Source: Candidatus Omnitrophota bacterium (GTDB taxonomy: Bacteria; Omnitrophota; Gorgyraeia; Gygaellales; Profunditerraquicolaceae). From it: 64,000 nt of DNA. Under the pieces are notes generated by a model, which ran no database searches, was not told the DNA's origin, and saw nothing but the letters and a program-made list of their open reading frames with translations. Each line of letters begins with the position of its first letter. The stretch's first letter is position 1. Shown piece by piece: positions 1,779 to 34,780 of this stretch. Position numbers and translations under genes: made by a program. The DNA lies in NCBI GenBank assembly GCA_022710715.1, contig JAKLGJ010000003.1, forward strand, positions 190,527-254,526. The letters are read 5' to 3'.

Positions 1779-2065
1779 TAGAAAACTCCTTTTTTAGCGG
1801 GTAAACAGAATCCTACACTTAATTGTAAGCATATTCCGTGCCAAAGATTAAAAAAAGTTCATACTAATTCACGCCGTAACCACGAGCTGCTCAATGCGTT
1901 AAGAATGCGCCTTCCAAGACCTTCTATGGCTGGAAGCCCGGTCCGATTCCATTGTTGCCGGCCTTAAACACAAACAGAGCGCCCGACCCCACCCGGCGCT
2001 CTATCACTATGCAGCATCAACCCTTTAGCGCATGATTAATATCAACATAAAATCAGCCCAAGCTG

Positions 2066-2146
2066 AAAAAAGGGGACAGGTCCACCCAAAACCCTCCGTC
2101 GAGAAATTTAGACAGATGTGTCCCCTTCTAAATTTGCTGTGTCCCC
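2066..2146 (+). repeat. REP-like element copy A: GGGGACAGGTCCACCC-N30-GACAGATGTGTCCCC-N14-GCTGTGTCCCC.
   Basis: Near-identical to copies at 2838, 3493 and 5320. Lies 5 nt after the RAYT stop. Confidence 0.85.
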
Positions 2147-2155
2147 TTTTTAGTT

Positions 2156-2821
2156 CTAGGGAACCCCACACACCATCTGATCCAGAGGAAGCTGTTTAAT
2201 CTTTTCTTTCATCCGTTCCACGAAATCCTCACTCCCTAATATCGTCCGGCGCGAGAAAGATTTCTGATTCATCACCCTGGAATCAAGCACAAAATCGCTG
2301 TAAGTCCTTTGCCGAGCCGCCGGATCGCTGCCAAGCCGCTCATACAACGGATCCATGCTCACCAAAGGATCCTTCTTCCCGGCAGCGTACACATTATAAC
2401 TGCTGAATCCGTATTCCTCGGGATAGGAAACCAACTCTCCGCGCACAGGGTTCAATTCCACATACTTGCCGCACTGCACCAGATAATTCTCCGAATCGAC
2501 AATGATACTCTTATACCGCCCCTGCCACAAATGCCCGATTAAACCGTAGCGCTTGCGAAAATACTGCATATAGGACAGGTTCACCTTCTGCATAAAAAGC
2601 GCGACATTCGACTCCATCTGCGGCCAAAGCAGCAAATGCACATGATTATTCATCAGGCAATAGTGCAGGATCTTGATAAAATTATTCGCCCTATGCTCCA
2701 GCAGCAATTTGTAATAATGCCGCTTATCCTCCCAGCAATGAAAAACGAACTGCTTGCCATTGCCCCGGCACATCACATGCAACCCCGCTCCAACCACGAT
2801 GATCCTGCGAATCCTCGGCAT
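2156..2821 (-). CDS. REP-associated tyrosine transposase (RAYT; IS200-like Y1 HUH transposase).
   Basis: HUH motif NHVHLLLW; catalytic Tyr region GHLWQGRYKS...ELNPVRGELV like E. coli RayT/YafM. Start moved to the internal ATG (MPRIRR) preceded by GAGGAGGAGG, because the ORF-track N-terminus is read through REP copy B. Confidence 0.8.
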   Translation of the reverse strand: MPRIRRIIVVGAGLHVMCRGNGKQFVFHCWEDKRHYYKLLLEHRANNFIKILHYCLMNNHVHLLLWPQMESNVALFMQKVNLSYMQYFRKRYGLIGHLWQGRYKSIIVDSENYLVQCGKYVELNPVRGELVSYPEEYGFSSYNVYAAGKKDPLVSMDPLYERLGSDPAARQRTYSDFVLDSRVMNQKSFSRRTILGSEDFVERMKEKIKQLPLDQMVCGVP

Positions 2822-2837
2822 CTGCTCCTCCTCCTCA

Positions 2838-2916
2838 CATAAGGGGACAGGTCCACCCAAAACGGCTCGTCGAGAATTTTGGACAGATGTGTCCCCTTCT
2901 AAATTTGCTGTGTCCC
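2838..2916 (+). repeat. REP-like element copy B, same orientation as copy A, between the RAYT start and the ORF6N-1 stop.
   Basis: Direct sequence identity to copy A over about 80 bp. Confidence 0.85.
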
Positions 2917-2932
2917 CTTTTCGAGGACGAGA

Positions 2933-3475
2933 TTAATCAGTCTTGAATCCAATCTGCGGCTTCGAAACCGGTGCCGACGATTTGGTGACAGGCTGCGCCG
3001 GCGCAAGCAATAATTGCTTGATAGCTTCGAAAATCGCATTGATCCGCTCATCGTGCTTATCCACTCGCCGCCCCAACGCTTCAAGCTTTTCCGCCAATTC
3101 CCGGTGAGTCAACAAGAGCTCGCGCAACTTCACAAACGCCCTCATAATAGCAATATTTACCTGAACAGCCCGCTCTGACCTCAAAACGCTTGAAAGCATC
3201 GCCACACCCTGTTCGGTAAAAACATACGGCAAGTGTCGCCTGCCGCCCCAACTTGACATCGCAAATTGCGATTTCAAATTTATTGCTTCTTCCTGGGTCA
3301 TCTGAAACATAAAATCATCCGGGAATCTATTACGATTCCTTTTAACCTGCTCATTCAACCGCATCGTTGCAACACCATACAACTGCGCCAGGTCCCGATC
3401 GATCAAAACCCGCTTACCCCGTACCACTAAAATTCTTGCTGCCACGGCTTCCACAGAAAATTTCCCTTCGTTCAT
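2933..3475 (-). CDS. ORF6N-domain (KilA-N-like, phage antirepressor-type DNA-binding) protein, paralog 1.
   Basis: MNEGKFSVEAVAARILVVRGKRVLIDRDLAQLYGV...RFPDDFMFQ...[46 protein letters not shown] plus a C-terminal coiled coil. Start trimmed to ATG 3475 because the first 27 aa of the track ORF translate REP copy C. Confidence 0.7.
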   Translation of the reverse strand: MNEGKFSVEAVAARILVVRGKRVLIDRDLAQLYGVATMRLNEQVKRNRNRFPDDFMFQMTQEEAINLKSQFAMSSWGGRRHLPYVFTEQGVAMLSSVLRSERAVQVNIAIMRAFVKLRELLLTHRELAEKLEALGRRVDKHDERINAIFEAIKQLLLAPAQPVTKSSAPVSKPQIGFKTD

Positions 3476-3492
3476 AGGCACACCTCCCTGGG

Positions 3493-3570
3493 CAAGGGGA
3501 CAGGTCCACCCTTTTGCGCTCGTCGATATTTTCGGACAGATGTGTCCCCTTTTCAATTTACTGTGTCCCC
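3493..3570 (+). repeat. REP-like element copy C.
   Basis: GGGGACAGGTCCACCC...GACAGATGTGTCCCC...CTGTGTCCCC. Confidence 0.85.
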
Positions 3571-3663
3571 TTTTACCCTAATAGACGCCATCGCCGCTCA
3601 AATCTAACAAAAATATTTTTAACCCAACACACTTTCAATAACCGCACACAACCACTCCCCCCT

Positions 3664-3744
3664 AAAAAAGGGGACACAGCATTTTCGAAAGGGGACACAT
3701 CTCCCCCTTTTTCTCGACGAGGGCTAAGGGGTGGACCTGTCCCC
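3664..3744 (-). repeat. REP-like element copy D, inverted relative to copy C with about 93 bp between them (REPIN-like inverted pair).
   Basis: GGGGACACAGC...GGGGACACATCT...GGGTGGACCTGTCCCC. Confidence 0.8.
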
Positions 3745-3751
3745 TTTTCCG

Positions 3752-3760
3752 TGGTATAAT
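3752..3760 (+). promoter_or_regulatory. Extended -10 promoter TGgTATAAT located 6 nt upstream of the xrtA ATG; predicts a leaderless transcript.
   Basis: TGGTATAAT at 3752-3760, ATG at 3767, no Shine-Dalgarno. Confidence 0.45.
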
Positions 3761-3766
3761 TACTGC

Positions 3767-4639
3767 ATGTTCAATTATCTGATCTGGGGATTAGTCGCCG
3801 CGCTTTATTCGCCGATCATCTACCAGCTTTACCGCAACCGCTGGGAAATGATCGACTACACCCACGCCTACTTCATCCTGCCGGTCTCTCTGTGGCTGAT
3901 CTGGCGCAAGCGCAAAGAACTGCGCCAAGCCGCCCGCGCAACCGCCGCAAGCCGCGCCGCCGCCCACGCCCGCACCCCCAAAAAGGCCGCGCGCTCCGCA
4001 TCCTGGGGTCTGGCAGCCCTCATCCTGGGCGTCCTGTTCTTCATCTTCGGCTGGCGCTGGGATTATCTGTTCATCTCCACCTTCTCGCTCATCCTCACCG
4101 GCTCCGGCCTGGTGCTTTATCTCTACGGCTCCAAAACCGCCAAACTGCTCAAGTTCCCCATTCTCTATCTTTTGCTCATGGTTCCGCCGCCTCTGGGCAT
4201 CCTGGACTCCATCACCCTGCCCATGCGTTACGGCATCTCCGCGGTCGCCGAATTCATCCTGCGCTCATTCCACGTGCCGGTAGTCCGCGACGGCCTGCTG
4301 CTCAACGTCGGCGGACAGGAAATATTCATGGGCCAGCCCTGCTCGGGATTCCGCTCCCTGATCACCCTGATCTCCCTGGGCCTGGCGTACGTGTACATCT
4401 GCAAATCCACGCGACGCACCAAAGCCATACTCCTGGCCTCGATCGTACCCCTGGCTTTAACCGGCAACCTTATCCGCGTGCTTTCGCTGTGCCTGGTCAC
4501 CTACCACTTCGGCCCGGAGATCGGCCAGGGCTTCTTCCACGATTTCAGCGGCATCCTCATGTTCATCGTGACCATTTCCGGCCTCATCGGTCTGGAAGCC
4601 TATTTAAACCGCCCGCGGGTCACGGAGGAGGAACGCTAG
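3767..4639 (+). CDS. xrtA: Exosortase (EpsH/XrtA family), polytopic membrane transpeptidase.
   Basis: WEMIDYTHAYFILPVSLWLIWRKR N-terminal motif; CSG active-site region PCSGFRSLITLISLGLAYVY; 8 predicted TM helices; followed directly by EpsI. Start set to ATG 3767 rather than GTG 3731, which lies in REP copy D. Confidence 0.75.
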   Translation: MFNYLIWGLVAALYSPIIYQLYRNRWEMIDYTHAYFILPVSLWLIWRKRKELRQAARATAASRAAAHARTPKKAARSASWGLAALILGVLFFIFGWRWDYLFISTFSLILTGSGLVLYLYGSKTAKLLKFPILYLLLMVPPPLGILDSITLPMRYGISAVAEFILRSFHVPVVRDGLLLNVGGQEIFMGQPCSGFRSLITLISLGLAYVYICKSTRRTKAILLASIVPLALTGNLIRVLSLCLVTYHFGPEIGQGFFHDFSGILMFIVTISGLIGLEAYLNRPRVTEEER

Positions 4640-5320
4640 ATGAAAAAAGCCGCCCCTGCCCGCGCCGCCGCCCCCGCCGCGCCCTTCAACCCCAGATACC
4701 TTATCGCCGCCATCCTCATCTGCGCGGCTATCGCAATCAGCTTCGCCATACCTAAACCCAAATACCAAAGCCTCAACGTCCTTAAACAGATCTCCATCCC
4801 GGTAAACTTCGGAGACTGGAAGGGCAACGACATCGGTCAGCAGCTCGACCTCAACGACGACCGCTACCGCTTCATCTCGGACATCTTCGCGCGCACCTAC
4901 ACCCGCGCAGACGGCGCGCAGCTCATGTTGCTGATCCTCGACGCAGGCAACTTCCACAATCCCAAAGTCTGCTTCGGCTCTTCCGGCTACAAAATCCGCG
5001 AGCTTCCCGACACCCGGATCAACGCCGGCAAACGCTCTTTTGAAACCACCACCCTGCTGATGACCAAAGATCCGGAATCCACCATGCTCATCTACTGGCT
5101 GTGCATCGATAAGAAAATAACTTCCTGGGCCGGCCAAAAAACCAAAGAACTCTGGTTCTCGCTCTTCAACAAAAAGAAAGCCGGACTCATGGTCCGGCTC
5201 GACGTTCCTGCTCATCCTCAAGCGCCCGAAGCCTCCGCGGCTTTAGCGCAGCAATTCGTTACTGAACTATCAACTCACCTTTCTGAAAAGGACCTGACTC
5301 TCATATTCGGCGCCCAGTAA
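4640..5320 (+). CDS. epsI: EpsI-family exosortase-associated protein.
   Basis: Unfused partner directly after the exosortase (stop/start overlap TAGATG); single N-terminal TM helix then a soluble domain, the EpsI architecture. Confidence 0.6.
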   Translation: MKKAAPARAAAPAAPFNPRYLIAAILICAAIAISFAIPKPKYQSLNVLKQISIPVNFGDWKGNDIGQQLDLNDDRYRFISDIFARTYTRADGAQLMLLILDAGNFHNPKVCFGSSGYKIRELPDTRINAGKRSFETTTLLMTKDPESTMLIYWLCIDKKITSWAGQKTKELWFSLFNKKKAGLMVRLDVPAHPQAPEASAALAQQFVTELSTHLSEKDLTLIFGAQ

Positions 5321-5396
5321 AGGGGACAGGTCCACCCAAAACCCTCCGTCGACAAAAACAGCCAGATGTGTCCCCTTTCAAATTTGCTATGTCCCC
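5320..5396 (+). repeat. REP-like element copy E, abutting the epsI stop codon.
   Basis: Identity to copies A-C. Confidence 0.85.
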
Positions 5397-5425
5397 TTTT
5401 CCTTTTCCAACTCACTCAACTCAAC

Positions 5426-5941
5426 TCAATTCACATCAAACCTCGGTTTGGGCGGCTCATCCGGAGGCGGCTCAATGAGTTTTTTGATCGTTGTGAAGAT
5501 CACCTGAATATCAGTTTCATGCATTTGATACTTCCGCTCTAATTCTTCAATTTTCTCCGATAACTCTTTGTGCGTTAACAACAGTTCTCGCAGCTTCACA
5601 AATGCCCGCATAATTGCTATATTTACCTGGACTGCACGTTCTGAACGCAGCACACTCGATAACATCGCCACACCTTCTTGAGTAAACACATACGGCAGGT
5701 ATCTGTGCCCACCCCAACTTGAGGTCACAAATTGTGACCTCAAGTCTACAACCTCTTCTCGGCTAAGTTGAAACATAAAATCTTCAGGAAACCTCTTAAG
5801 ATTCCTTCTAACGCCTTGAAGCAAAGCTTTCGTCTTCACACCATACAGCTCCGCCAAATCCCTATCCAGCATCACCTTCTTCCCTCGAATCAACAGAATC
5901 TTTGCAGCCACAACCTCCACCGAAATTTTCTCTTTTTTCAT
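5426..5941 (-). CDS. ORF6N-domain protein, paralog 2.
   Basis: [35 protein letters not shown]...[58 protein letters not shown] before ATG 5941. Confidence 0.7.
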
Positions 5942-6132
5942 CGCTCTCCCTCCCTTCATCACTAATAGACGCAGAGAGAAGCGAAATCTAACACAAATCT
6001 CCAGCAACTTATCTCCACCCACCTATAAAAACAAGTAGGACATGGGGACACGAACGAAAAGGAACCAGGTGCCGCGAGGTAACCCCAACAAGAAAAGCGC
6101 ATATTTCTATGCGCTTCCTTCGCCTCCTGATT

Positions 6133-6148
6133 CAAAAGGGGACACAGC
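6133..6148 (-). repeat. Truncated REP-like remnant (a single GGGGACACAGC arm) just 3' of the lipoprotein gene. A second GGGGACAC lies at 6044-6051.
   Basis: Matches the first arm of copies D, G and H only. Confidence 0.4.
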
Positions 6149-18415: not shown

Positions 18416-19276
18416 CTAACGCACCAGCTTGAGCAGATAATCCTTATACCCGGCGTCCATATCCTGGGCCAGCTTTTCCAGCTGCTCCCGGTTGATGTAT
18501 TTCATCCGATAGGCGGTTTCTTCCAGGCAGCCGATCTTCAACCCCTGCCGCTCTTCGATCATCCAGATGAAACGCGATGCGTCGCCGATGGAATCGTAGG
18601 TGCCGGTGTCCAGCCAGGCGTAGCCGCGGTCAAGCAGGACGACTTTGAGCTTGTTCTGCTTGAGATAAGCGGTGTTGACGTCGGTGATCTCCAGTTCCCC
18701 TCTGGCCGAAGGCTTGAGGTTCTTGGCGATCTCGATGACCTGGTTGTCGAAGAAATACAACCCCGTCACCGCCCAGTTGGATTTGGGATGCCGGGGTTTT
18801 TCTTCCAGGGAAACCGCGTTGTTGTTTTCGTCGAATTCCACCACGCCGTAGCGTTCGGGGTCTTTGACCGGATAGGCGAAGACTACCGCGCCTTTGAGAT
18901 CGAGCATGGCGATCTTGAGATGCTCCACCAGGCCGTGGCCGTAGAAGATGTTGTCGCCGAAGATCAAACAGGTGTTATCCTTGCCGATGAATTTCTCGCC
19001 GATCAGGAAAGCTTCGGCGATGCCTTTGGGAACTTTCTGCTCGGCGTAGGTGATGTTGATCCCTAATTGCGAGCCGTCGCCGATCAGGGCGTTGAACTGC
19101 TCCTGCGCGCCGGGCGAGGTAATGATGAGGATATCCCGGATGCCGGAGAGCATCAAAGTAGACAGCGGATAATAGAACATCGGCTTGTCGTAAAGCGGCA
19201 GCAAAGGTTTGGAGATGATCTTGGTCACCGGGTGGAGCCGTTTGCCGCGGCCTGCGGCGAGGATTATGCCTTTCAT
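18416..19276 (-). CDS. rfbA: Glucose-1-phosphate thymidylyltransferase.
   Basis: MKGIILAAGRGKRLHPVT...KPLLP...YGVVEFD canonical motifs. Confidence 0.9.
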   Translation of the reverse strand: MKGIILAAGRGKRLHPVTKIISKPLLPLYDKPMFYYPLSTLMLSGIRDILIITSPGAQEQFNALIGDGSQLGINITYAEQKVPKGIAEAFLIGEKFIGKDNTCLIFGDNIFYGHGLVEHLKIAMLDLKGAVVFAYPVKDPERYGVVEFDENNNAVSLEEKPRHPKSNWAVTGLYFFDNQVIEIAKNLKPSARGELEITDVNTAYLKQNKLKVVLLDRGYAWLDTGTYDSIGDASRFIWMIEERQGLKIGCLEETAYRMKYINREQLEKLAQDMDAGYKDYLLKLVR

Positions 19277-19434
19277 ACGCGCGTCCTTTTTTGTGCGAGC
19301 ATCCTCTTCAGTGTCGATTTAGGCAAAGCTGCGTTGAATCTGCGCATTTCTTCCAGCCAGGCGAGCTTTTGGGCGGCAGGCACGCGCAGCCAGCGTTTCA
19401 TCTTCTCTTCTTCGGATTCCCAGCCGTAACTCAT
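19274..19434 (-). CDS. Small 53-aa ORF (MSYGWESEEEKMKRWLRVPAAQKLAWLEEMRRFNAALPKSTLKRMLAQKRTRV), translationally coupled on both sides.
   Basis: Not in the ORF track (under 60 aa). TAATG overlap with the upstream NTase stop and ATGA overlap with the rfbA start. Confidence 0.35.
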
Positions 19435-19931
19435 TATTTCTTCCCTTTCATGATTCTCTTGAGCTTCTTCAGTTGCAAGATGTCGAATGTATCTATCTGC
19501 CGGGCAGAAGCTCTTTTCATAGCGATAAGATCATCTATCCCCATCACCGGAAGCGCTAAGCCGGACACTTTTACCCGCCGGGCGCGCTTGAGCGCTTCGG
19601 CAAAAGGAACCGGCGAATCCACAATAATATCTATCTCTTTCAATTCGCCTGGTTGGTAGTAATTGATCGCCTTGAGATTCTTCTGTTTGATTAACGCGGC
19701 CAATGCCGCCGGATCCAGCGCTTTTATGTCGATCGGCTGCTTCAAGCGGTATCCCAGAGAACGTAAGATGCGGTCAGCTTCCCGCAGAGTCTGCGGATCG
19801 ATACCGATCAAAAGATCCAGATCAGCGGTTGCCCTGGACACACCCAACAAATTGAGCGCGATGCCGCCCACGATCACATAATCGAATTTCTCGCGCTGGA
19901 ATGCTTTGAAAACATCCTCATAAATGATCAT
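19434..19931 (-). CDS. Pol-beta-superfamily nucleotidyltransferase-fold protein.
   Basis: VIVGGIALNLLGVSRATADLDLLI matches hG[GS]-x9-13-DhD. Confidence 0.5.
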   Translation of the reverse strand: MIIYEDVFKAFQREKFDYVIVGGIALNLLGVSRATADLDLLIGIDPQTLREADRILRSLGYRLKQPIDIKALDPAALAALIKQKNLKAINYYQPGELKEIDIIVDSPVPFAEALKRARRVKVSGLALPVMGIDDLIAMKRASARQIDTFDILQLKKLKRIMKGKK

Positions 19932-19977: not shown

Positions 19978-21561
19978 TCACACCCAGTTATAGATTGCCC
20001 TGGGGATGAAGAAGGTGCGGTTGTTCAAAATGATCCCCATGATGTTGGCTTTTTTCTCGGCCAGCGGGAAGAGCGCGTTGCGCACCACCTGCTTGCGGGT
20101 CTTGCCTTCGTCGACCACCAGCAGCACGCCGTCGACCTGACTGCACAGCAAAATGCTGTCGCGATGGGTCAGATCGGGCGCGGAGATAAGCACCAGATCG
20201 TAGCTGCGCACCACATCCGCCAGAAGGGTATTCATGCGGTTGGAGTCGAGCACGGTGACCGGGTTGAGCTCGGTCTTGCCCGCGGGAAGCAGCGCCAGGT
20301 TCTTAGAGATGGTCTGCACGGTCTTCTCAAAGGTGACTTTTTCCTCGATCACGTCGACCAGCCCCGGCGCGTTCTCCTTCTGCTTGTTCTCGAATTTCTT
20401 CAGGGTGAGCTGGCGGAAATTGGCGTCGACCACCAGGACTTTGAGCCCCCATTTCTCGGCGAGCGAACGGCCGAGGTTGACCACGATGTCGGCAGCGTCT
20501 TCGCCGTAGGCGGCGGTGGTGAAGAGCAGCGATTTGAGGTTCTTGTCCTTGGAGATGAGCAGGATCTGTTCGGCCAGGGTATCGAATGATCGGGACTTGC
20601 CTTTTTTAGGGATGAAACCCAGCGAGGGCAAAGCCAGGTAGCGTTCGACTTCCTGCGGCGATTTGAAGGTCTGGTCCATGTATTCGAACATGAACGCCAG
20701 CATGCCCCCCAGGAACAGGGACATGAAGATGGCCAGAATGATGATCAATCCGCCGGACGGACCCACGGGCCGCAAAGGCGGCAGGGCCTGTTCGATGACT
20801 TTGACGCTGGCCGGGCCGATAGCGTCGACGTCGTTAGGCAGAAGCTGGCCGCCGAAGAGCATTTTCTCTTTGGGCCGCTCTCTCTGCTCGATCTTGCTGA
20901 TGCTTTCCTGGATCTGGACTACGGTGGAATGTTTATCGCCGTATTTGGTCTGGAGCTCGGCCACCTGCTGTTCCAGGTCGAAAAGGATATACGCGCGGCT
21001 GACCACGTTGGCCACTGCCGCGGCGATCATCGGATCGTAATCGCGATATTTGATCAGGAAGAGATTGGTGTCGCGGATAGGCTCGATGTCGATGCGGGAT
21101 TTAAGCCGTTCCAGCGCGAGGAACGCCAGCTGGCGGCCTCTGGTCTGGTCGTCGAGGGCTTTGAGCTTGGCGGTGAGCATTTTGCGCTCGAGCTTCAGGA
21201 GGAGCGCTTTGAGCGGAGTTGCGGCTCTCTCTTCCACTTCCATGGGCAGGAAATTCTGCAGGGAGCGGAATTCGATGGTCCTGCGCAGCACCGGGAAGGA
21301 TTTGACGATTTCCGCCTGGGTCAGCGCCGCTTCCATGTTGCGGCTGCCCAAAAGCTCGCGATAGTAGGGCGATTCGACCTGTTTCTCGGCGGAGATGAGC
21401 ATCTTGACCTGGGCTTCGTATTCCGGGGTCCGCAGCATGTTGCCGATGATCACGGTGATCATCACGGTGATAAAACAGGTGATGATCACGGCTTTCTGGC
21501 GGAAAAGCACGCGCAGATAATCGCGCATGGTTGTTTCGGGTAATTGCTCGAGCTGTTCCAT
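19978..21561 (-). CDS. Polysaccharide chain-length determinant (Wzz N-domain) fused to a BY-kinase-like P-loop domain with a degenerate Walker A (TTAAYGEDAADIV).
   Basis: Two-TM Wzz topology with coiled coil; C-terminal domain has kinase-like DxD and hydrophobic strands but lacks GK[ST] and a C-terminal Tyr cluster. Confidence 0.6.
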   Translation of the reverse strand: MEQLEQLPETTMRDYLRVLFRQKAVIITCFITVMITVIIGNMLRTPEYEAQVKMLISAEKQVESPYYRELLGSRNMEAALTQAEIVKSFPVLRRTIEFRSLQNFLPMEVEERAATPLKALLLKLERKMLTAKLKALDDQTRGRQLAFLALERLKSRIDIEPIRDTNLFLIKYRDYDPMIAAAVANVVSRAYILFDLEQQVAELQTKYGDKHSTVVQIQESISKIEQRERPKEKMLFGGQLLPNDVDAIGPASVKVIEQALPPLRPVGPSGGLIIILAIFMSLFLGGMLAFMFEYMDQTFKSPQEVERYLALPSLGFIPKKGKSRSFDTLAEQILLISKDKNLKSLLFTTAAYGEDAADIVVNLGRSLAEKWGLKVLVVDANFRQLTLKKFENKQKENAPGLVDVIEEKVTFEKTVQTISKNLALLPAGKTELNPVTVLDSNRMNTLLADVVRSYDLVLISAPDLTHRDSILLCSQVDGVLLVVDEGKTRKQVVRNALFPLAEKKANIMGIILNNRTFFIPRAIYNWV

Positions 21562-21587
21562 ATGAATCCTCCCTTTAAAAGATACGA

Positions 21588-22262
21588 TTAGAAAACACCT
21601 TGCGAGACGACCACGATGTCGCCGGTTTGCAGCACCAGGTCATCGTCGGAATTACCGTCCATAACCGCTTTGATATTCACTTTGATCGTTTCATAGCCGG
21701 GCTTGTTTGAGCGCGGCCGCAATACTTTGACGTGGGTTGAGCCGAATTTGGTAAAACCGCCGGCCATGGAGATGGCGCGCAGGACCGTGGTGCTGCCTTC
21801 GAGCTGGAAGGTGCCGGGCCGCATCACTTCGCCGTAGACGAAGAATTTATGCGAGCGGGCTTCGCGCAATGAAACCGAAACCACCGGGTATTTCATGTAA
21901 CCGTCGGAAAGACGGTCCTGGATTTCTTTCTGGATGCCGGTCAGGGTCAAGCCGTTGACTCTGACGCTGCCCACGTAGGGGAACGAGATCGAGCCGTCGG
22001 GAGCCACGGAGACGGTGACCAGCAGCTTTTCCGGCTGGAGCACGCTGATATCCATGATATCGTCCACGCCGACCACGTATTCCGTGCCGGGAGCCATATC
22101 CGGGCTGGAAGCCGCGGGCGCTGAAACGGCGGACGCGGGGACTGCGGGTGCCGAGGCTGCGGGCGCCGGGACCGCAGGCGCTTCATCCTTGGCCGCTTCC
22201 GCGGCGCATGCGACTGACGCTCCGAAAAGTAACAGTATAAGACCGGTTAAAAACTGTTTCAT
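21588..22262 (-). CDS. Wza-like polysaccharide export protein (Poly_export + SLBB), short EpsE-type.
   Basis: Signal peptide, an Ala/Pro-rich linker, then a PES/SLBB domain. RBS GGAGGAG precedes ATG 22262. Confidence 0.65.
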   Translation of the reverse strand: MKQFLTGLILLLFGASVACAAEAAKDEAPAVPAPAASAPAVPASAVSAPAASSPDMAPGTEYVVGVDDIMDISVLQPEKLLVTVSVAPDGSISFPYVGSVRVNGLTLTGIQKEIQDRLSDGYMKYPVVSVSLREARSHKFFVYGEVMRPGTFQLEGSTTVLRAISMAGGFTKFGSTHVKVLRPRSNKPGYETIKVNIKAVMDGNSDDDLVLQTGDIVVVSQGVF

Positions 22263-22292
22263 CACTCCTCCTTTGATTAGAAACTTATCCAC

Positions 22293-22544
22293 TCAATTAG
22301 TCGCTACGCGATGCAGCAACTCTGAAATAAAAGTCTGGTATTTTACTCCCATTTTGCGCGCTTTTTCCTTGATGTTCCTCAAATCCTGGCTGTTAATGCG
22401 GACATTGAGGACCGCGTCTTTTTTTCTGGCGGCAAGAGATTGAGCGATCTGGTGAAACTCTTCCGGAGTTACGTTCACGAATTGATCATTGATCAAGGCT
22501 TCTTCGATCTCTTTTTCTTGTGCGGGCAGTTTAAGTCTTCTCAT
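22293..22544 (-). CDS. BrnA-like ribbon-helix-helix (CopG/COG3514) antitoxin-type regulator, orphan (no BrnT partner).
   Basis: LNVRINSQDLRNIKEKARKMGVKYQTFISELLHRV matches the BrnA core. Confidence 0.5.
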   Translation of the reverse strand: MRRLKLPAQEKEIEEALINDQFVNVTPEEFHQIAQSLAARKKDAVLNVRINSQDLRNIKEKARKMGVKYQTFISELLHRVATN

Positions 22545-22592
22545 TACGCAAAACCTCCATAAAACTTTTTAGCAGGTTCCAGGAAAGCTTAC

Positions 22593-22628
22593 GCATGTAT
22601 TATAACATGCATACAATTGTATATACAA
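22593..22628 (-). promoter_or_regulatory. Putative sigma70 promoter and operator. Inverted repeat GCATGT-N6-ACATGC whose loop is TATAAT on the minus strand, plus the perfect 12-bp palindrome TTGTATATACAA (a -35-like TTGTAT 18 bp upstream).
   Basis: Direct reading of the sequence upstream of the RHH gene. Confidence 0.4.
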
Positions 22629-22673
22629 ATCTATTTCTTTTCTTCAATTGAATGCGGCTTTTTCAACGCCCCC

Positions 22674-22754
22674 AAAAAAGGGGACACAGCAATTTGCAAA
22701 GGGGACACATCTGTCCGATTTTCTCGACGAGCCGTTTTGGGTGGACCTGTCCCC
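22674..22754 (-). repeat. REP-like element copy G, immediately 3' of the sugar transferase gene. Followed by a perfect 21-bp tandem duplication (22747-22788) spanning the REP end and the gene's last codons.
   Basis: GGGGACACAGCAATTTGCAAAGGGGACACATCTGTCCG...GGGTGGACCTGTCCCC; CTGTCCCCTATTTCGCGCCGA repeated twice. Confidence 0.8.
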
Positions 22755-22774
22755 TATTTCGCGCCGACTGTCCC

Positions 22775-24193
22775 CTATTTCGCGCCGATGCCGAGGATAA
22801 CCGCAGGCACGGTTTTGGCGATGATCTTGGCGTCGAGCCACAGGGACCAGTTGTCGATGTAATCCAGGTCCAGCTTGACCCATTTGGCGAAATCCACGAT
22901 CTGATTGCGCCCGGAAACCTGCCAGAGGCAGGTGATGCCCGGCCGCATGGAAAGCCTGCGGCGGTGCCAGGCGTCGTATTCCTTGACTTCCAAGGGCAAC
23001 GGCGGACGCGGCCCCACGGTGCTCATATCCCCGCAGAACACGTTCCATAATTGCGGCAGCTCGTCGATGGAAAACTTGCGCAGGATGCGGCCCAGCCAGG
23101 TCACCCTGGGGTCGTTTTTCATCTTGAACACCGGGCCGGTCATCTCGTTATGCACGCGCAATTCGTTCAATTTCATCTCCGCGTCTTTGATCATGGTGCG
23201 GAATTTGTACAGGGTGAAAATGCGGCCGTTAAGCCCCACCCGTTTCTGCCGGAAGAATACCGGCCCCGCGGAAGTCACTTTTATCAAGAGCGCCACGATC
23301 AGGAAAAAAGGCGACAGCGCCACAAGCAGGACGCCGGCAAAAACAAAATCGAAAACGCGCTTGATCAGCAGATGCCAGAGTTTATCCGGCGTGGAATCAA
23401 AGGTCAACAGGGGAAATTTGCCCAGCTCCCCGACTTTAGCCCGGGAGAACTGCATCTCGAAATAATCCACGGCCACGTGTATCTTCAAACCTTCCATTTC
23501 GCACAGATAGAGGATATCCTCGATCTTGTTCAGCCAGGAACGCGGGATCACGAAAACCACCTCATCGATCACCATGCTGCGCAGGATCAGGGGCATGTCC
23601 TTGAAGGTCCCCAGGACTTTCACCCCTTCCACGCTCTCCCCCTTCTTGCCCGGATCGTCGTCGATGATGCCGGCGAGCTTGTACCCCCAGGAAGAATGCT
23701 CCTTGATCAACTGGATGAATTGCTGGGCGCGTTTGTTGGTGCCCACCACCAGGAGATATTTGACGTTGAAGCCGCGGCGGCGGATCAGGCGGAAAAACAG
23801 GATGAGAAATATTTTCGAAGCCAGAGTCAACACCGTGGCGATGCCGAAGACCAGCAGGATGAACGCGCGGCTGATCTCATGCAGCCGGAATAAATAGATC
23901 ACGCTGGAGTAAAATACGAACCCCACGAAAGCGGTGCGCAGCACGATCAGCCAGATATCCCAGAGCGGCTTGGTGCGAAAGGATTCGTACATTTTGAACC
24001 AATAGAGCAATCCGCTCCAGGTGAAAACGAACAGCGGCAGCAGGCCGACGTATTCGTTCAACGGATGGATCATGCCCATGCTATCGCTCAAATAACCGCG
24101 GAATTCGAAGCCGATGAGGAATGACGCGGCGGCAATGAACATATCCACGAAAACCGCTGTTTTTCTAAGCATTGAAATGCGTTCTTTAAGCAT
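22775..24193 (-). CDS. Polyprenyl-phosphate glycosyl-1-phosphate transferase (WbaP/EpsL-type initiating sugar transferase).
   Basis: N-terminal TM bundle plus a C-terminal bacterial sugar transferase domain (KRVFDFVFAGVLLVALSPFFL...FRQKRVGLNGRIFTLYKFRTM). Confidence 0.8.
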   Translation of the reverse strand: MLKERISMLRKTAVFVDMFIAAASFLIGFEFRGYLSDSMGMIHPLNEYVGLLPLFVFTWSGLLYWFKMYESFRTKPLWDIWLIVLRTAFVGFVFYSSVIYLFRLHEISRAFILLVFGIATVLTLASKIFLILFFRLIRRRGFNVKYLLVVGTNKRAQQFIQLIKEHSSWGYKLAGIIDDDPGKKGESVEGVKVLGTFKDMPLILRSMVIDEVVFVIPRSWLNKIEDILYLCEMEGLKIHVAVDYFEMQFSRAKVGELGKFPLLTFDSTPDKLWHLLIKRVFDFVFAGVLLVALSPFFLIVALLIKVTSAGPVFFRQKRVGLNGRIFTLYKFRTMIKDAEMKLNELRVHNEMTGPVFKMKNDPRVTWLGRILRKFSIDELPQLWNVFCGDMSTVGPRPPLPLEVKEYDAWHRRRLSMRPGITCLWQVSGRNQIVDFAKWVKLDLDYIDNWSLWLDAKIIAKTVPAVILGIGAK

Positions 24194-24219: not shown

Positions 24220-25395
24220 TTAAAACAATACGGTCAGGCCGCAGGTCACGGCGTTCTTTTCGTAGTCGCGGGTGTCGGAGTTGGAGTCGGTTTGAGAATA
24301 TGCATACGAGACGTTGGCTTTGATGTTGTCCGCGACGTCATAGACCAGGCCGACATTGATTCCCTGGAACGTGTCTCTGACGTCAACCACGGTATAGGTG
24401 CCTTCGCCGTAAAAAGCGTTCACCCCCAGACCGAGCCTGCGGAATATCTGGTTGCCCAGGCCGGCGGAAAACTGCCACTGATTGAAAAGGTCCTGGGTGG
24501 ATGAATTGGTGGTGTATTGTTTGGAATAGGAGATCGAAGCCCGGGTAGTGGCGTCTAAATCGTCGGTCAGGGTGACCTGGAAGAACGGTTTGACGTAATT
24601 CCTGTTATTGAACGAACGGATGAAATCGTAGCCGGTTTTTCCGTCGAGATAAACCTGGGAAGTGAAATAATGCCTGCCTCCCGCGCCCAGGGAATTGATG
24701 GTGGCCGACGCGCCGGGATCGAATTCGCGCACCGCGATATCGTAGGAAATCGACCCCTGGGTTTTGGAACTGAAGATATAATCCCCGGATACCCCGAAGC
24801 GGTTATAATAGGAATCGCTCATGTCGTTGCGGGAGTAATCGGTGATCTCGTTGGCGTAACGCAGCGAACCGGTGAATTCTTTGGTGAAATCGCGGCTATA
24901 GGAGGCGTTGAATCGGTTGCGCAAATAGCTGTACCGGCCGGAAGTGCGGCCGAATTCGTCTTCGAAGCTGCTCGGCTCTTCGGCGTGGGTAAACGTATCG
25001 CTCAAGCTGAAACGCTCGTAAGGATTGAGTTCCCGGTTATACCGGGCGTTGATATGTTCGGAGGTATTGTCGAAATCGCTGTATTTATCGAAGAACTGCT
25101 GGTTGATCCGGGCGGTAAAGGCCAGGTTCTGGGTTTTGCCTTCATAGGCGGCGTCCAGGCCGACCGAAGCGGTAGTGATATAATCATCCTTCTCGTTGGT
25201 CTGGGCGTAGGTGATGTTGTCATCGTAGGAAACCGACAGCGAACCCAGGGCTTTGAGATCCCAGCCATTGATCAGATACGCGTGCGCGCGCGCCGGGGCG
25301 CAAAAGCAGCAAACGACAGAGCAAACGGCAGTTACGATAAGGCTGGAAACGGCACTGCGGCGGAAGATAAAAAAACGGCTCAAACGTGGTCGCAC
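24220..25395 (-). CDS. Outer-membrane beta-barrel protein (OmpL-like; PEP-CTERM/EPS-locus associated type).
   Basis: Signal peptide ...CAPARAHA; alternating amphipathic strands; aromatic-rich; C-terminal Phe. Confidence 0.5.
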   Translation of the reverse strand: MRPRLSRFFIFRRSAVSSLIVTAVCSVVCCFCAPARAHAYLINGWDLKALGSLSVSYDDNITYAQTNEKDDYITTASVGLDAAYEGKTQNLAFTARINQQFFDKYSDFDNTSEHINARYNRELNPYERFSLSDTFTHAEEPSSFEDEFGRTSGRYSYLRNRFNASYSRDFTKEFTGSLRYANEITDYSRNDMSDSYYNRFGVSGDYIFSSKTQGSISYDIAVREFDPGASATINSLGAGGRHYFTSQVYLDGKTGYDFIRSFNNRNYVKPFFQVTLTDDLDATTRASISYSKQYTTNSSTQDLFNQWQFSAGLGNQIFRRLGLGVNAFYGEGTYTVVDVRDTFQGINVGLVYDVADNIKANVSYAYSQTDSNSDTRDYEKNAVTCGLTVLF

Positions 25396-34205: not shown

Positions 34206-34286
34206 TCAAAAGGGGACACAGCAAATTTCAAAGGGGACACATCTGTCCGATTTTCTCGACGAGCCCCAAGGGGTGGACCTGTCCCC
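34206..34286 (-). repeat. REP-like element copy H, overlapping the cheW stop codon.
   Basis: Near-identical to copy G. Confidence 0.8.
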
Positions 34287-34780
34287 TATGCGAGGAGTTC
34301 GGCGGCGAGCGAGACGTCTTCGGTCAGGACTTTGTCGATGTCGAGCAGGATCTTGACCTTGTCGCCGATCTTACCCATGCCGGTGATAAAATCCGTGTGC
34401 ACTTTGTTGCCGAAACTCGGCGCCGGCTCGATATTGTCCTGGGATATATCCAGCACCTCGCACACCCGGTCGACGGCGATGCCCATAAGCGAATTGTTGA
34501 CGTTGAGCACGATGATGCAGGTCTCGTTGGTATAATCGTGCTTAGGCATCCCGAATTTCAAACGCAGGTCGATCACCGGGATCACTTTTCCGCGCAGGTT
34601 GATCACGCCTTTAACGTAATCCGGCACCTGGGGGACCGCAGTGATCTCCATCAGCCCGATGATCTCGCGCACTCCCAGGATCTCCAGGCCGTACTCTTCA
34701 TGTCCCAGGGCGAAGGTGAGGTATTTTCCTTCCTTAGCCAGGGCCTGAACCATAGTATTGGATTTCTCATTGCTTGGCAT
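34286..34780 (-). CDS. cheW: Chemotaxis coupling protein CheW.
   Basis: CheW-like domain LTFALGHEEYGLEILGVREII...VINLRGKVIPVIDLR. Confidence 0.85.
   Translation of the reverse strand: MPSNEKSNTMVQALAKEGKYLTFALGHEEYGLEILGVREIIGLMEITAVPQVPDYVKGVINLRGKVIPVIDLRLKFGMPKHDYTNETCIIVLNVNNSLMGIAVDRVCEVLDISQDNIEPAPSFGNKVHTDFITGMGKIGDKVKILLDIDKVLTEDVSLAAELLA

What the first reader, a model, noticed from the sequence alone, without database searches (positions are those of the whole stretch)
22293..22640. Orphan BrnA-like RHH gene with palindromic operators embedding a TATAAT box at the head of the export operon
An RHH antitoxin-family protein without a toxin partner sits first in the wza-wzc operon. Upstream lie GCATGT-N6-ACATGC, whose loop is TATAAT on the coding strand, and the perfect palindrome TTGTATATACAA. 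This suggests autoregulated, RHH-controlled expression of the polysaccharide export genes.
Basis: partly seen in the sequence, partly recalled or inferred. Interest (0 to 1): 0.5.

Follow-up and report, generated by a model that had tools for sequence, protein, structure and literature searches.

The report
Toxin-deleted BrnTA-like module before wza
The small DNA-binding gene in front of the polysaccharide export genes is the surviving antitoxin half of a toxin-antitoxin module whose toxin gene was deleted. It still carries that family's promoter and operator, so it is an ordinary relic rather than a dedicated regulator of export.

Summary
The window is a Candidatus Omnitrophota genome.

In 70 non-redundant homologous loci, about 52 have an ~86-aa toxin gene directly upstream, usually overlapping the RHH start (ATGA). 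That toxin models confidently, and its best solved match is Brucella BrnT (3U97).

TTGTATATACAA is the family's operator. It occurs with at most one mismatch, 0-31 nt upstream of the toxin start, in 47 of 49 intact modules. In the window it supplies the -35, 18 nt before TGTTATAAT.

GCATGT-N6-ACATGC is not conserved. Its right arm holds the start codon of the dead toxin.

The window keeps only toxin codons 1-11 (MRKLSWNLLKS) and the last ~8 (KFYGGFA*). About 200 nt were lost at an AAAAAG junction.

At least 17 of 70 loci show similar toxin decay.

None of 80 related EpsL-PGT-Wza-Wzc clusters carries this RHH. Other accessory genes (Fic, Zeta toxin, AbiE, PD-(D/E)XK) sit at the same junctions.

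Self-repression is likely. Read-through into wza-wzc is possible but untested. Interest is low.

The parts
22293..22544 (-). Intact 83-aa RHH antitoxin gene of the BrnA/CopG_antitoxin type. The N-terminal ~38 residues are helical and the C-terminal residues 41-81 form the ribbon-helix-helix.
   Evidence: PF12441 scores 26.6 bits and NikA-like RHH gives E 5e-5. There are 369 homologues, mostly 83 aa and mostly from Omnitrophota. All 20 invariant family residues are retained. The AF2 monomer has low confidence but shows H-H-(strand region)-H-H.
22554..22558 (-). Shine-Dalgarno GGAGG for the RHH gene. It lies inside the remnant of the toxin's C-terminal codons.
   Evidence: Read directly from the sequence. 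The same (G)GAGG sits at the same place in the toxin 3' ends of intact modules.
22531..22596 (-). Remnant of the BrnT-like toxin gene. The start ATG is at 22596-22594. Codons 1-11 (MRKLSWNLLKS) run to 22564. The deletion junction lies in AAAAAG at about 22565-22569. The C-terminal remnant AAG TTT TAT GGA GGT TTT GCG TAA (KFYGGFA*) occupies 22567-22544 in another frame. The frameshifted 21-codon ORF ends at 22531.
   Evidence: tblastn of intact toxins matches MRKLSWNLLKS (8 of 11 identical; E 0.058 on its own) at exactly the position after the -10 where intact modules start the toxin. The 3' piece matches toxin 3' ends such as L016 ACAAAGTTTTATCGAGGG...ATGA. ATG-to-ATG distance is 52 nt here against about 254-257 nt in intact modules.
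22599..22607 (-). Extended -10 element TGTTATAAT. The TATAAT occupies 22599-22604.
   Evidence: Read from the sequence. The same layout (palindrome, then nnGTAT, then TATAAT) occurs in loci L063, L078, L059, L069, L044 and L041. The stock promoter scan missed it because TTGTAT matches only 3 of 6 positions of TTGACA.
22611..22628 (.). Family operator. On the minus strand it reads as three abutting hexamer half-sites, TTGTAT-ATACAA-TTGTAT. The core palindrome TTGTATATACAA is at 22617-22628. Its first hexamer (22623-22628) doubles as the -35, 18 nt from the -10.
   Evidence: The core palindrome occurs with at most one mismatch in 47 of 49 intact modules, 0-31 nt upstream of the toxin start. Ten of its 12 positions are kept in at least 45 of 47 loci. 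The flanks ATACAA and nnGTAT are semi-conserved. It is also retained upstream of the RHH gene in at least 9 toxin-decayed loci.
22593..22610 (.). Inverted repeat GCATGT-N6-ACATGC around the -10. It is not conserved. Its right arm contains the dead toxin's ATG.
   Evidence: Present in the window. Only 2 of 28 loci with the same promoter layout have any inverted repeat with arms of 5 bp or more there, and none has this sequence. The window holds 31 such 6-N6-6 repeats.
22675..22760 (+). One copy of a dispersed ~85-nt REP-like repeat (AAAGGGGACACA-N9-AAAGGGGACACATCTGTCC...GGGTGGACCTGTCCCCT). It sits between the PGT stop codon and the toxin-antitoxin promoter, antisense to the genes.
   Evidence: Seven full copies occur in the window. 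The 12-mer has 16 matches against 0.2 expected. On the minus strand it folds into a long hairpin followed by U6 (z = -2.1). Rfam gives no hit.
22747..22788 (.). Perfect 21-bp tandem duplication, CTGTCCCCTATTTCGCGCCGA x2. It spans the end of the REP-like element and the PGT stop codon.
   Evidence: the repeat finder family D1. The region is identical in all five contigs aligned (window plus four from other samples).
22775..24193 (-). Upstream neighbour: polyprenyl glycosylphosphotransferase (WcaJ/EPS_sugtrans type).
   Evidence: TIGR03025 scores 441 bits and PF02397 gives E 2e-70.
21588..22262 (-). Downstream neighbour: Wza-type polysaccharide export protein. Its ATG is at 22262, 30 nt after the RHH stop, and it has its own AGGAGG.
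   Evidence: PF02563 and SLBB domains. Public gene calls give 224 aa. No terminator-like site lies between the RHH gene and wza.
19978..21561 (-). Wzc-type chain-length determinant / tyrosine autokinase.
   Evidence: TIGR01007, Wzz, GNVR and AAA_31 matches.

Best explanation
The locus is a degenerate type II toxin-antitoxin module of a BrnT/BrnA-like family that is abundant in Omnitrophota and their neighbours.

The ancestral module had this order: operator and promoter, then an ~86-aa BrnT-fold toxin, then the 83-aa RHH antitoxin, with the toxin stop overlapping the antitoxin start. It was inserted between the glycosylphosphotransferase gene and wza of a conserved EPS cluster.

An internal deletion of about 200 nt at an AAAAAG microhomology then removed toxin codons ~12-77. 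That left the promoter (TTGTAT-18 nt-TGTTATAAT), the operator, the first 11 and last ~8 toxin codons (including the antitoxin's ribosome-binding site), and an intact antitoxin gene.

Inferred mechanism:
- RHH dimers bind the abutting TTGTAT/ATACAA half-sites that overlap the -35 and repress their own promoter. Without the toxin as co-repressor, repression is probably weaker or non-cooperative.
- Transcripts that do start, at about 22592, carry the RHH gene. Because no terminator is apparent, they probably continue into wza-wzc.

Shown here: the family, gene order, toxin fold, operator conservation, deletion anatomy, and absence of the RHH from related EPS clusters.

Inferred only: DNA binding, repression, the transcription start site and read-through.
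For: Family and partner:
- About 49 of 70 non-redundant homologous loci have an 83-103-aa ORF ending 4 nt (some 14-41 nt) inside the RHH start. Three more intact toxins were found by tblastn.
- The toxin alignment models at pLDDT 93.7.
- Its best PDB match is Brucella abortus BrnT, 3U97 (E 5.7e-4, probability 1.00, TM 0.57/0.63), followed by RelE-family toxins.
- Pfam BrnT_toxin is hit weakly by 7 of 19 members.

Operator: TTGTATATACAA occurs with at most one mismatch in 47 of 49 intact modules, just upstream of the toxin start.

Two promoter layouts are visible. In one, TTGACA-N17-TACAAT precedes the palindrome, which then covers the -10 and the start site. In the other, the palindrome serves as the -35, followed by TATAAT. 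The window has the second layout.

Deletion:
- MRKLSWNLLKS follows the -10 exactly where toxins start.
- AAGTTTTATGGAGG...TAATGA matches toxin 3' ends.

Recurrence: stop codons, frameshifts and 5', 3' or internal deletions of the toxin occur in at least 17 of 70 loci. The operator is kept 18-200 nt from the RHH gene in at least 9 of them.

Insertion:
- The RHH gene and intergenic region have GC 0.44, against 0.55-0.58 for the neighbouring genes.
- 80 related loci keep EpsL-PGT-Wza-Wzc. The PGT-Wza gap is usually short (roughly up to 260 nt by my arithmetic on the coordinates), and none has an RHH.

Known behaviour of the prototype: the BrnT-BrnA 2:2 complex binds and represses its own promoter (PMC5086665, citing Heaton et al. 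2012).
Against: - The window protein scores just below the Pfam cutoff for PF12441 and far below the NCBIfam BrnA cutoff.
- No solved structure is detectable by sequence for either protein.
- The RHH monomer model is poor (pLDDT 57).
- The N-terminal toxin remnant alone has weak statistics (E 0.058). Its weight comes from its position.
- The toxin ATG sits only 2 nt after the TATAAT, closer than in relatives (4-15 nt). The ancestral -10 and start-site geometry may therefore have shifted.
- There is no expression or binding data.
Confidence: 0.8

Rival explanations
1. Co-opted regulator. The RHH and its operator-promoter now act as the functional, self-regulated promoter of the wza-wzc export genes. 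On this view polysaccharide export is under RHH control.
For: - The RHH stop is 30 nt from the wza ATG on the same strand, with no terminator-like site between them.
- No other sigma-70-like site was found between the toxin-antitoxin promoter and wza.
- The REP-like hairpin followed by U6 downstream of PGT could terminate upstream transcription.
- The promoter, operator and RHH gene are perfectly intact, although the toxin is gone.
Against: - None of 80 related EpsL-PGT-Wza-Wzc loci has the RHH.
- Homologues, including other toxin-less ones, sit in unrelated contexts.
- Only 11 of 72 family loci show a terminator after the RHH gene, so its absence here is not special.
- The REP hairpin is not a canonical terminator (one search found none; z is only -2.1).
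- The contigs aligned from five samples are 100% identical across this region, so they give no evidence of selection.
Confidence: 0.15
2. Inert relic. After the toxin was lost the antitoxin has no function. It is simply caught before it decays, and any effect on neighbouring genes is incidental.
For: - Toxin decay with antitoxin retention is common in this family, in at least 17 of 70 loci, and at all stages.
- The window RHH's N-terminal (presumed toxin-binding) part is unusually divergent: 0.53 identity to the family consensus, against 0.69 +/- 0.07 for partners of intact toxins. Its RHH part is typical, at 0.76 against 0.78.
- Orphan antitoxins are widely reported in other bacteria (PMC7192599, PMC10790755).
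Against: - The ORF, ribosome-binding site, promoter and operator carry no lesion.
- All 20 invariant residues are retained.
- At least 9 independent loci keep the operator next to the RHH gene after toxin loss. This would also be expected if a self-regulated antitoxin stays useful.
- The group-level test for N-terminal relaxation is only marginal (P = 0.057).
Confidence: 0.3
3. Anti-addiction or cross-talk element. The orphan antitoxin is kept because it neutralises, or co-represses, paralogous BrnT-like modules elsewhere in the genome or on incoming mobile elements. All of these share the same operator.
For: - The operator is nearly invariant across proteins that are only 53-69% identical, so cross-binding is plausible.
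- Some genomes carry two or more copies of the family. L027 and L039 come from one MAG, and L034 and L049 from another.
Against: - No second copy of the toxin, the RHH gene or the operator lies in the 64-kb window.
- The rest of the 1.62-Mb contig could not be searched.
- The divergent N-terminal part argues against preserved toxin binding.
Confidence: 0.15
4. The palindromes are chance features of an AT-rich spacer, and there is no operator.
For: Perfect 12-bp palindromes (23) and 6-N6-6 inverted repeats (31) are common in the window.
Against: TTGTATATACAA is conserved at the same place in 47 of 49 intact modules from many genomes. This rival applies only to GCATGT-N6-ACATGC, and for that repeat it is the favoured view.
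Confidence: 0.02

Closest known systems
[quoted passage not shown] 2012, as summarised in PMC5086665; BrnT structure 3U97)
   Same: - Intact relatives have the toxin gene first and an antitoxin with a C-terminal RHH second.
- The toxin model's best solved match is BrnT.
- The antitoxin hits CopG_antitoxin and BrnA models.
- A palindromic site overlapping the promoter fits the self-repression reported for BrnTA.
   Different: - Sequence similarity to BrnT and BrnA is at or below family thresholds.
- In the window the toxin is deleted, so there is no toxin-antitoxin pair, no 2:2 complex and no conditional co-operativity.
Orphan (solo) antitoxins of chromosomal type II systems, such as those catalogued in Klebsiella and E. 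coli (PMC7192599, PMC10790755)
   Same: The antitoxin gene is kept without a cognate toxin. The state arises by toxin decay and is frequent within the family (at least 17 of 70 loci).
   Different: Here the deletion scar can be read to the base. The family operator and promoter are retained and now sit directly in front of a polysaccharide export operon.
Arc/MetJ/CopG-type RHH repressors that bind inverted or tandem half-sites overlapping their promoter (from general knowledge)
   Same: A small RHH protein with a 12-bp palindrome plus an adjacent half-site at 6-bp register, overlapping the -35 or the -10 and start site.
   Different: Binding was not tested. The protein has an extra ~38-residue N-terminal part that is typical of BrnA-like antitoxins.
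REP elements with REP-associated tyrosine transposases (RAYTs). This applies to the neighbouring repeat at 22675-22760, not to the RHH gene.
   Same: A short, hairpin-forming repeat that is strictly intergenic and occurs in many copies. A Y1 (IS200-like) transposase gene at 2156-2860 is flanked by two copies.
   Different: - The transposase scores 48.6 bits against a cutoff of 80 for NF047646.
- The two flanking copies are in direct, not inverted, orientation.
- The element is longer (~85 nt) than classic REPs.

Membership tests
BrnTA-like type II toxin-antitoxin module (BrnA/CopG_antitoxin, PF12441) | The antitoxin matches the family profile at its curated threshold. | tested here: inconclusive
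   The window protein scores 26.6 bits against a cutoff of 28 for PF12441, and 17.3 against 60 for NF047399 BrnA. Most 60-69% identical homologues carry a precomputed PF12441 hit, and some are named CopG family antitoxin.
BrnTA-like type II toxin-antitoxin module (BrnA/CopG_antitoxin, PF12441) | A cognate BrnT-fold toxin is encoded immediately upstream in the same operon. | tested here: not met
   In the window only codons 1-11 and the last ~8 codons remain. In the family the feature is met: about 52 of 70 loci have the toxin, and the model's top PDB match is BrnT 3U97. The window locus is therefore a derivative of such a module, not a working toxin-antitoxin pair.
BrnTA-like type II toxin-antitoxin module (BrnA/CopG_antitoxin, PF12441) | Self-repression through binding of the antitoxin, or of the complex, to its own promoter. 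| not testable with these tools
   A conserved palindromic operator overlapping the promoter was found, which fits this feature. Binding and repression need EMSA and reporter assays.
BrnTA-like type II toxin-antitoxin module (BrnA/CopG_antitoxin, PF12441) | The toxin is a growth-inhibiting ribonuclease that the antitoxin neutralises. | not testable with these tools
   Only the fold-level match to BrnT and RelE-like toxins is available.
Ribbon-helix-helix DNA-binding fold | A beta-strand followed by two helices, forming a dimer. | tested here: inconclusive
   Profile hits to two RHH families (PF12441, PF21983) cover residues 39-78. The AF2 monomer shows coil at 41-50, then helices at 51-63 and 68-81, but pLDDT is only 57. 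The dimer was not modelled.
Dedicated regulator of the EpsL-PGT-Wza-Wzc (PEP-CTERM-type) EPS cluster | Conserved association of the regulator gene with the cluster in related genomes. | tested here: not met
   tblastn with the RHH protein found no hit in 80 related loci that keep the cluster order. The same junctions hold unrelated accessory genes elsewhere.
REP/RAYT system (for the repeat at 22675-22760) | A multi-copy intergenic palindromic repeat plus a RAYT gene flanked by copies. | tested here: inconclusive
   Seven copies lie in 64 kb. The Y1_Tnp gene at 2156-2860 is flanked by two copies. It hits NF047646 at 48.6 bits, below the cutoff of 80.

The most novel reading that the evidence does not exclude
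The relic promoter and operator may have been captured as the working promoter of wza-wzc. EPS export in this organism would then be repressed by the orphan RHH. Because the operator is almost invariant across the family, it would also be repressed by every paralogous BrnTA-like complex in the cell. That would tie capsule or EPS export to the state of a toxin-antitoxin network.
Probability: 0.12. Interest if true: 0.5.

Novelty: new member of a known kind. Interest (0 to 1): 0.22.

Why it matters
The main value is as a correction. A gene that looks like a regulator at the head of an export operon is really the scar of a selfish toxin-antitoxin insertion.

Three smaller points may be useful:
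- The work defines the operator (TTGTATATACAA plus flanking half-sites) and two promoter layouts for a large BrnTA-like family. The family is concentrated in Omnitrophota, and current profile libraries do not recognise its toxin.
- It gives a base-level example of how such modules lose the toxin but keep a self-regulated antitoxin. This outcome recurs in about a quarter of the loci examined.
- It shows that the gene junctions of Omnitrophota EPS operons collect accessory and defence-type genes.

If the promoter does drive wza-wzc, this would be a small case of regulatory capture.

Tried and rejected
- RHH structure: the AF2 monomer had pLDDT 57, so I ran no fold search on it.
- PDB sequence searches with profiles of the RHH family and of the toxin family found nothing meaningful.
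- Rfam at E <= 1 over 21500-23500 gave no hit, so the upstream hairpins are not a known RNA family.
- PADLOC gave no hit for the RHH protein or the toxin.
- The stock promoter scan did not report the TTGTAT-18-TATAAT site, because its -35 matches only 3 of 6 positions.
- A simple hairpin-plus-T-run search found no terminator after the RHH gene or on the minus strand of the REP region. It found one in only 11 of 72 family loci.
- The test for relaxed constraint on the N-terminal part of orphan antitoxins was marginal at group level (P = 0.057). The window protein is about 2 SD low.
- MAFFT placed the ~200-nt gap at a suboptimal position. I read the junction from the two flanks instead.
- No close relative of this genome (more than 71% Wza identity) was in the metagenome scan. 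The pre-insertion and pre-deletion states could therefore not be recovered.

Full report
**1. What is in the sequence**

All genes around the finding lie on the minus strand. Listed in the direction of transcription, from high to low coordinates:
- EpsL-like outer-membrane barrel, 24220-25395
- polyprenyl glycosylphosphotransferase (PGT), 22775-24193
- a 230-nt spacer
- the 83-aa RHH ORF, 22293-22544
- a Wza-type exporter, ATG at 22262, ending at 21588
- a Wzc-type co-polymerase/kinase, 19978-21561
- a DUF2204/AbiEii-like nucleotidyltransferase with a 53-aa ORF, 19273-19931
- RmlA

The RHH protein is identical to a protein of a Candidatus Omnitrophota MAG. The same arrangement was seen on the contigs shown from several samples, and the 550-nt region was identical in the five contigs aligned.

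Both palindromes are present. GCATGT-ATTATA-ACATGC lies at 22593-22610 and TTGTATATACAA at 22617-22628.

On the coding strand the region reads TTGTAT-ATACAA-TTGTAT-GCATGT-TATAAT-AC-ATG. This gives a -35-like TTGTAT, an 18-nt spacer and an extended -10, TGTTATAAT.

**2. Chance**

Taken alone the palindromes are unremarkable. The window holds 23 perfect 12-bp palindromes and 31 perfect 6-N6-6 inverted repeats. The promoter region has three such repeats against 0.36 expected, and shuffling gives P = 0.037. The decisive evidence is comparative.

**3. The family and its missing partner**

The RHH protein has 369 homologues at E <= 1e-3 among the 370 candidates the word index collected, mostly 83 aa long and 55-69% identical to it. 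A genome-collection scan confirmed 236 relatives, mostly in Omnitrophota and also in Planctomycetota, Elusimicrobia and others. The best 80 loci were returned.

Among 70 non-redundant loci:
- 49 have an upstream same-strand ORF of about 86 aa whose end overlaps the RHH start, typically as ATGA.
- tblastn adds three more intact copies.

This upstream protein has no Pfam or NCBIfam assignment at threshold. Seven of 19 members hit BrnT_toxin weakly. An AlphaFold model built from 30 sequences is confident (pLDDT 93.7). Its best match among solved structures is Brucella abortus BrnT, 3U97 (E 5.7e-4, TM 0.57/0.63), followed by RelE-type toxins.

The family is therefore a divergent BrnT/BrnA-like module with the toxin gene first, as in brnTA.

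**4. The operator**

I anchored the upstream regions of the 49 intact modules on the best match to TTGTATATACAA. The motif appears with at most one mismatch in 47 of them, 0-31 nt before the toxin start. Ten of its twelve positions are kept in at least 45 of 47 loci. The flanks are semi-conserved as further half-sites: ATACAA on the 5' side and nnGTAT on the 3' side.

Two promoter layouts occur:
- **Layout A.** TTGACA-N17-TACAAT is followed by the palindrome, which covers the -10 and the start site.
- **Layout B.** The palindrome itself provides the -35 (TTGTAT), and a TATAAT follows 17-18 nt later. The toxin ATG lies only 4-15 nt beyond it, which suggests leaderless or very short-leader mRNAs.

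The window has layout B.

GCATGT-N6-ACATGC is different. Only 2 of 28 layout-B loci have any inverted repeat with arms of 5 bp or more around the -10, and none has this sequence. I treat it as a lineage-specific coincidence. Its right arm is simply AC plus the toxin's ATG plus C.

**5. What happened to the toxin**

Directly after the -10 the window reads ATG CGT AAG CTT TCC TGG AAC CTG CTA AAA AGT, which translates to MRKLSWNLLKS. This matches the conserved toxin N-terminus, for example MKQLTWNLLKS in L029 and MKGLKWNLLKS in L027.

The 24 nt before the RHH start read AAG TTT TAT GGA GGT TTT GCG TAA, which translates to KFYGGFA*. They match toxin 3' ends such as ...ACAAAGTTTTATCGAGGGAGAACGAAATGA in L016, including the embedded ribosome-binding site and the stop/start overlap.

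The two pieces meet in AAAAAG and are out of frame with each other. The toxin ATG lies 52 nt from the RHH ATG, against about 254-257 nt in intact modules. So about 200 nt, roughly codons 12-77, were deleted, probably at a short microhomology.

No toxin-like ORF exists on either strand, and none occurs elsewhere in the window.

**6. This is a recurrent fate**

Among the loci without an obvious toxin ORF I found the following:
- in-frame stops (L011, L090)
- a frameshifted N-terminal piece (L089)
- N-terminal remnants (L007, L020, L062)
- C-terminal remnants (L038, L045, L067, L070, L075, L085, L088)
- loci with no toxin remnant at all (L036/L053, L057, L082, L092)

In at least nine loci the operator is still present, but now only 18-200 nt from the RHH start instead of about 280 nt. 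The window's state, with operator, promoter and antitoxin kept and the toxin gone, is one of a series.

This agrees with the general finding that orphan antitoxins are common in bacterial genomes (PMC7192599, PMC10790755).

**7. Relation to the export genes**

In 80 related loci found with the Wza protein, the order EpsL-PGT-Wza-Wzc is conserved. The PGT-Wza gap is usually short, roughly up to 260 nt by my arithmetic on the coordinates. None contains an RHH homologue.

Where those operons have larger gaps, the gaps hold other accessory genes: Fic/DOC, a Zeta-toxin-like kinase, PD-(D/E)XK proteins, a 23S-rRNA-IVS protein, YhcG, AbiEi/AbiEii and a transposase.

In the window the 512 nt between the PGT stop and the wza ATG consist of:
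- a REP-like repeat with a 21-bp tandem duplication
- the relic module

The relic is AT-richer, at GC 0.44 against 0.55-0.58 for the neighbouring genes. The RHH gene is therefore an insertion into a pre-existing operon, not its native head.

What the insertion does to expression is open. No terminator-like site separates the RHH gene from wza, so transcripts from the relic promoter should enter wza-wzc. The REP copy folds, on the coding strand, into a long hairpin followed by U6 (z = -2.1). It could weaken transcription arriving from PGT, but it is not a canonical terminator.

**8. Mechanism proposed**

- **Shown:** the anatomy and the comparative evidence above.
- **Inferred from the BrnTA prototype** (the complex binds its own promoter; PMC5086665) **and from general RHH behaviour:** dimers of the 83-aa protein bind the abutting TTGTAT/ATACAA half-sites over the -35 and repress their own synthesis. 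Without the toxin, repression is set by the antitoxin alone.
- **Side effect, inferred:** a self-limited trickle of transcription enters wza-wzc.

The window protein keeps all 20 invariant family residues. Its RHH half is typical, at 0.76 identity to the consensus. Its N-terminal half, the presumed toxin-binding part, is about 2 SD more divergent than in partners of intact toxins. That fits loss of the neutralising role with retention of DNA binding. The group-level test, however, is only marginal (P = 0.057).

**9. Comparison with known systems, and novelty**

The locus works like, and descends from, a BrnTA-type module. It fails the defining test of having a toxin, so it is an orphan antitoxin rather than a toxin-antitoxin system.

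Nothing here is a new kind of system. The operator definition, the unannotated BrnT-fold toxin family and the deletion scar are new details within a known kind.

**10. Verdict**

- Observation: confirmed.
- Interpretation: partly supported.
- Interest: low, about 0.2.
- Most novel reading not excluded: regulatory capture of wza-wzc by the relic promoter, at about 12% probability.

Noticed in passing
window 2060-2149 (-), 2830-2920 (-), 3480-3573 (-), 3667-3760 (+), 5310-5399 (-), 22675-22760 (+), 34209-34295 (+); partial copies at 6135 and 15677: A dispersed ~85-nt intergenic repeat, AAAGGGGACACA-N9-AAAGGGGACACATCTGTCC-N8-TCGACGAG-N~10-GGGTGGACCTGTCCCCT, is present in 7 full copies in 64 kb. 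The 12-mer has 16 matches against 0.2 expected. It forms a conserved hairpin (GGGGACA/TGTCCCC outer stem, inner stem with a few compensated changes). Several copies lie directly 5' of a ribosome-binding site and ATG in the same orientation. It has no Rfam match and was not found in the 167 fetched loci that come from other genomes.
   Followed up: partly
window 2156-2860 (-): A Y1 (IS200-like) transposase gene is flanked on both sides by copies of the repeat above. It hits the NCBIfam REP-associated tyrosine transposase model at 48.6 bits, below the cutoff of 80. This may be a REP/RAYT-type system in an Omnitrophota genome, although the two flanking copies are in direct orientation.
   Followed up: partly
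window 22747-22788, and 34286-34300: A perfect 21-bp tandem duplication (CTGTCCCCTATTTCGCGCCGA x2) spans the end of the REP-like copy and the PGT stop codon. At both copies that converge on a minus-strand gene (PGT, and the CheW gene 34286-34780), the gene's TAG stop overlaps the element end CCCCTA. The element may insert at, or create, stop codons.
   Followed up: no
window 19273-19931 (-): A second small accessory insert in the same operon lies between wzc and rmlA: a 165-aa DUF2204/DUF6036/AbiEii-like nucleotidyltransferase, followed by a 53-aa ORF whose start overlaps the NTase stop codon by one base. Neither has a family assignment at NCBIfam. A 64%-identical NTase follows wza in a related locus (L130).
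   Followed up: partly
L094, L097, L107, L114, L116, L119, L120, L125, L168, L170, L173 (related EPS loci): The PGT|Wza and Wza|Wzc junctions of related EpsL-PGT-Wza-Wzc operons repeatedly hold unrelated accessory genes: Fic/DOC with DUF4172, Zeta-toxin-like, PDDEXK_3, 23S-rRNA-IVS protein, YhcG nuclease, AbiEi/AbiEii and a DUF772 transposase. L111, by contrast, holds a polysaccharide deacetylase, which fits the pathway. These junctions look like insertion hot spots.
   Followed up: partly
L063, L078, L059, L019 and other layout-B loci: In many intact modules the toxin ATG lies only 4-6 nt after the TATAAT, which implies leaderless toxin mRNAs. Other members instead have a GAGGTG ribosome-binding site and a GTG start. 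The two translation-initiation modes track the two promoter layouts.
   Followed up: no
L027/L039 (MAG binchicken_co203_628) and L034/L049 (MAG KR13_S3.mb.80): Some genomes carry two or more copies of this BrnTA-like family, all with the same operator core. Cross-regulation between paralogues therefore seems possible.
   Followed up: no
window 2933-3556 (-), 5426-6022 (-); L011 4466-5110: Two ORF6N-domain (KilA-N/Rha-like) genes in the window are each adjacent to a REP-like copy. The first is directly preceded by one. An ORF6N gene also follows the RHH homologue in L011. The window additionally encodes an exosortase (EpsH, 3731-4639), which fits the PEP-CTERM-type models hit by the EPS genes.
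   Followed up: no
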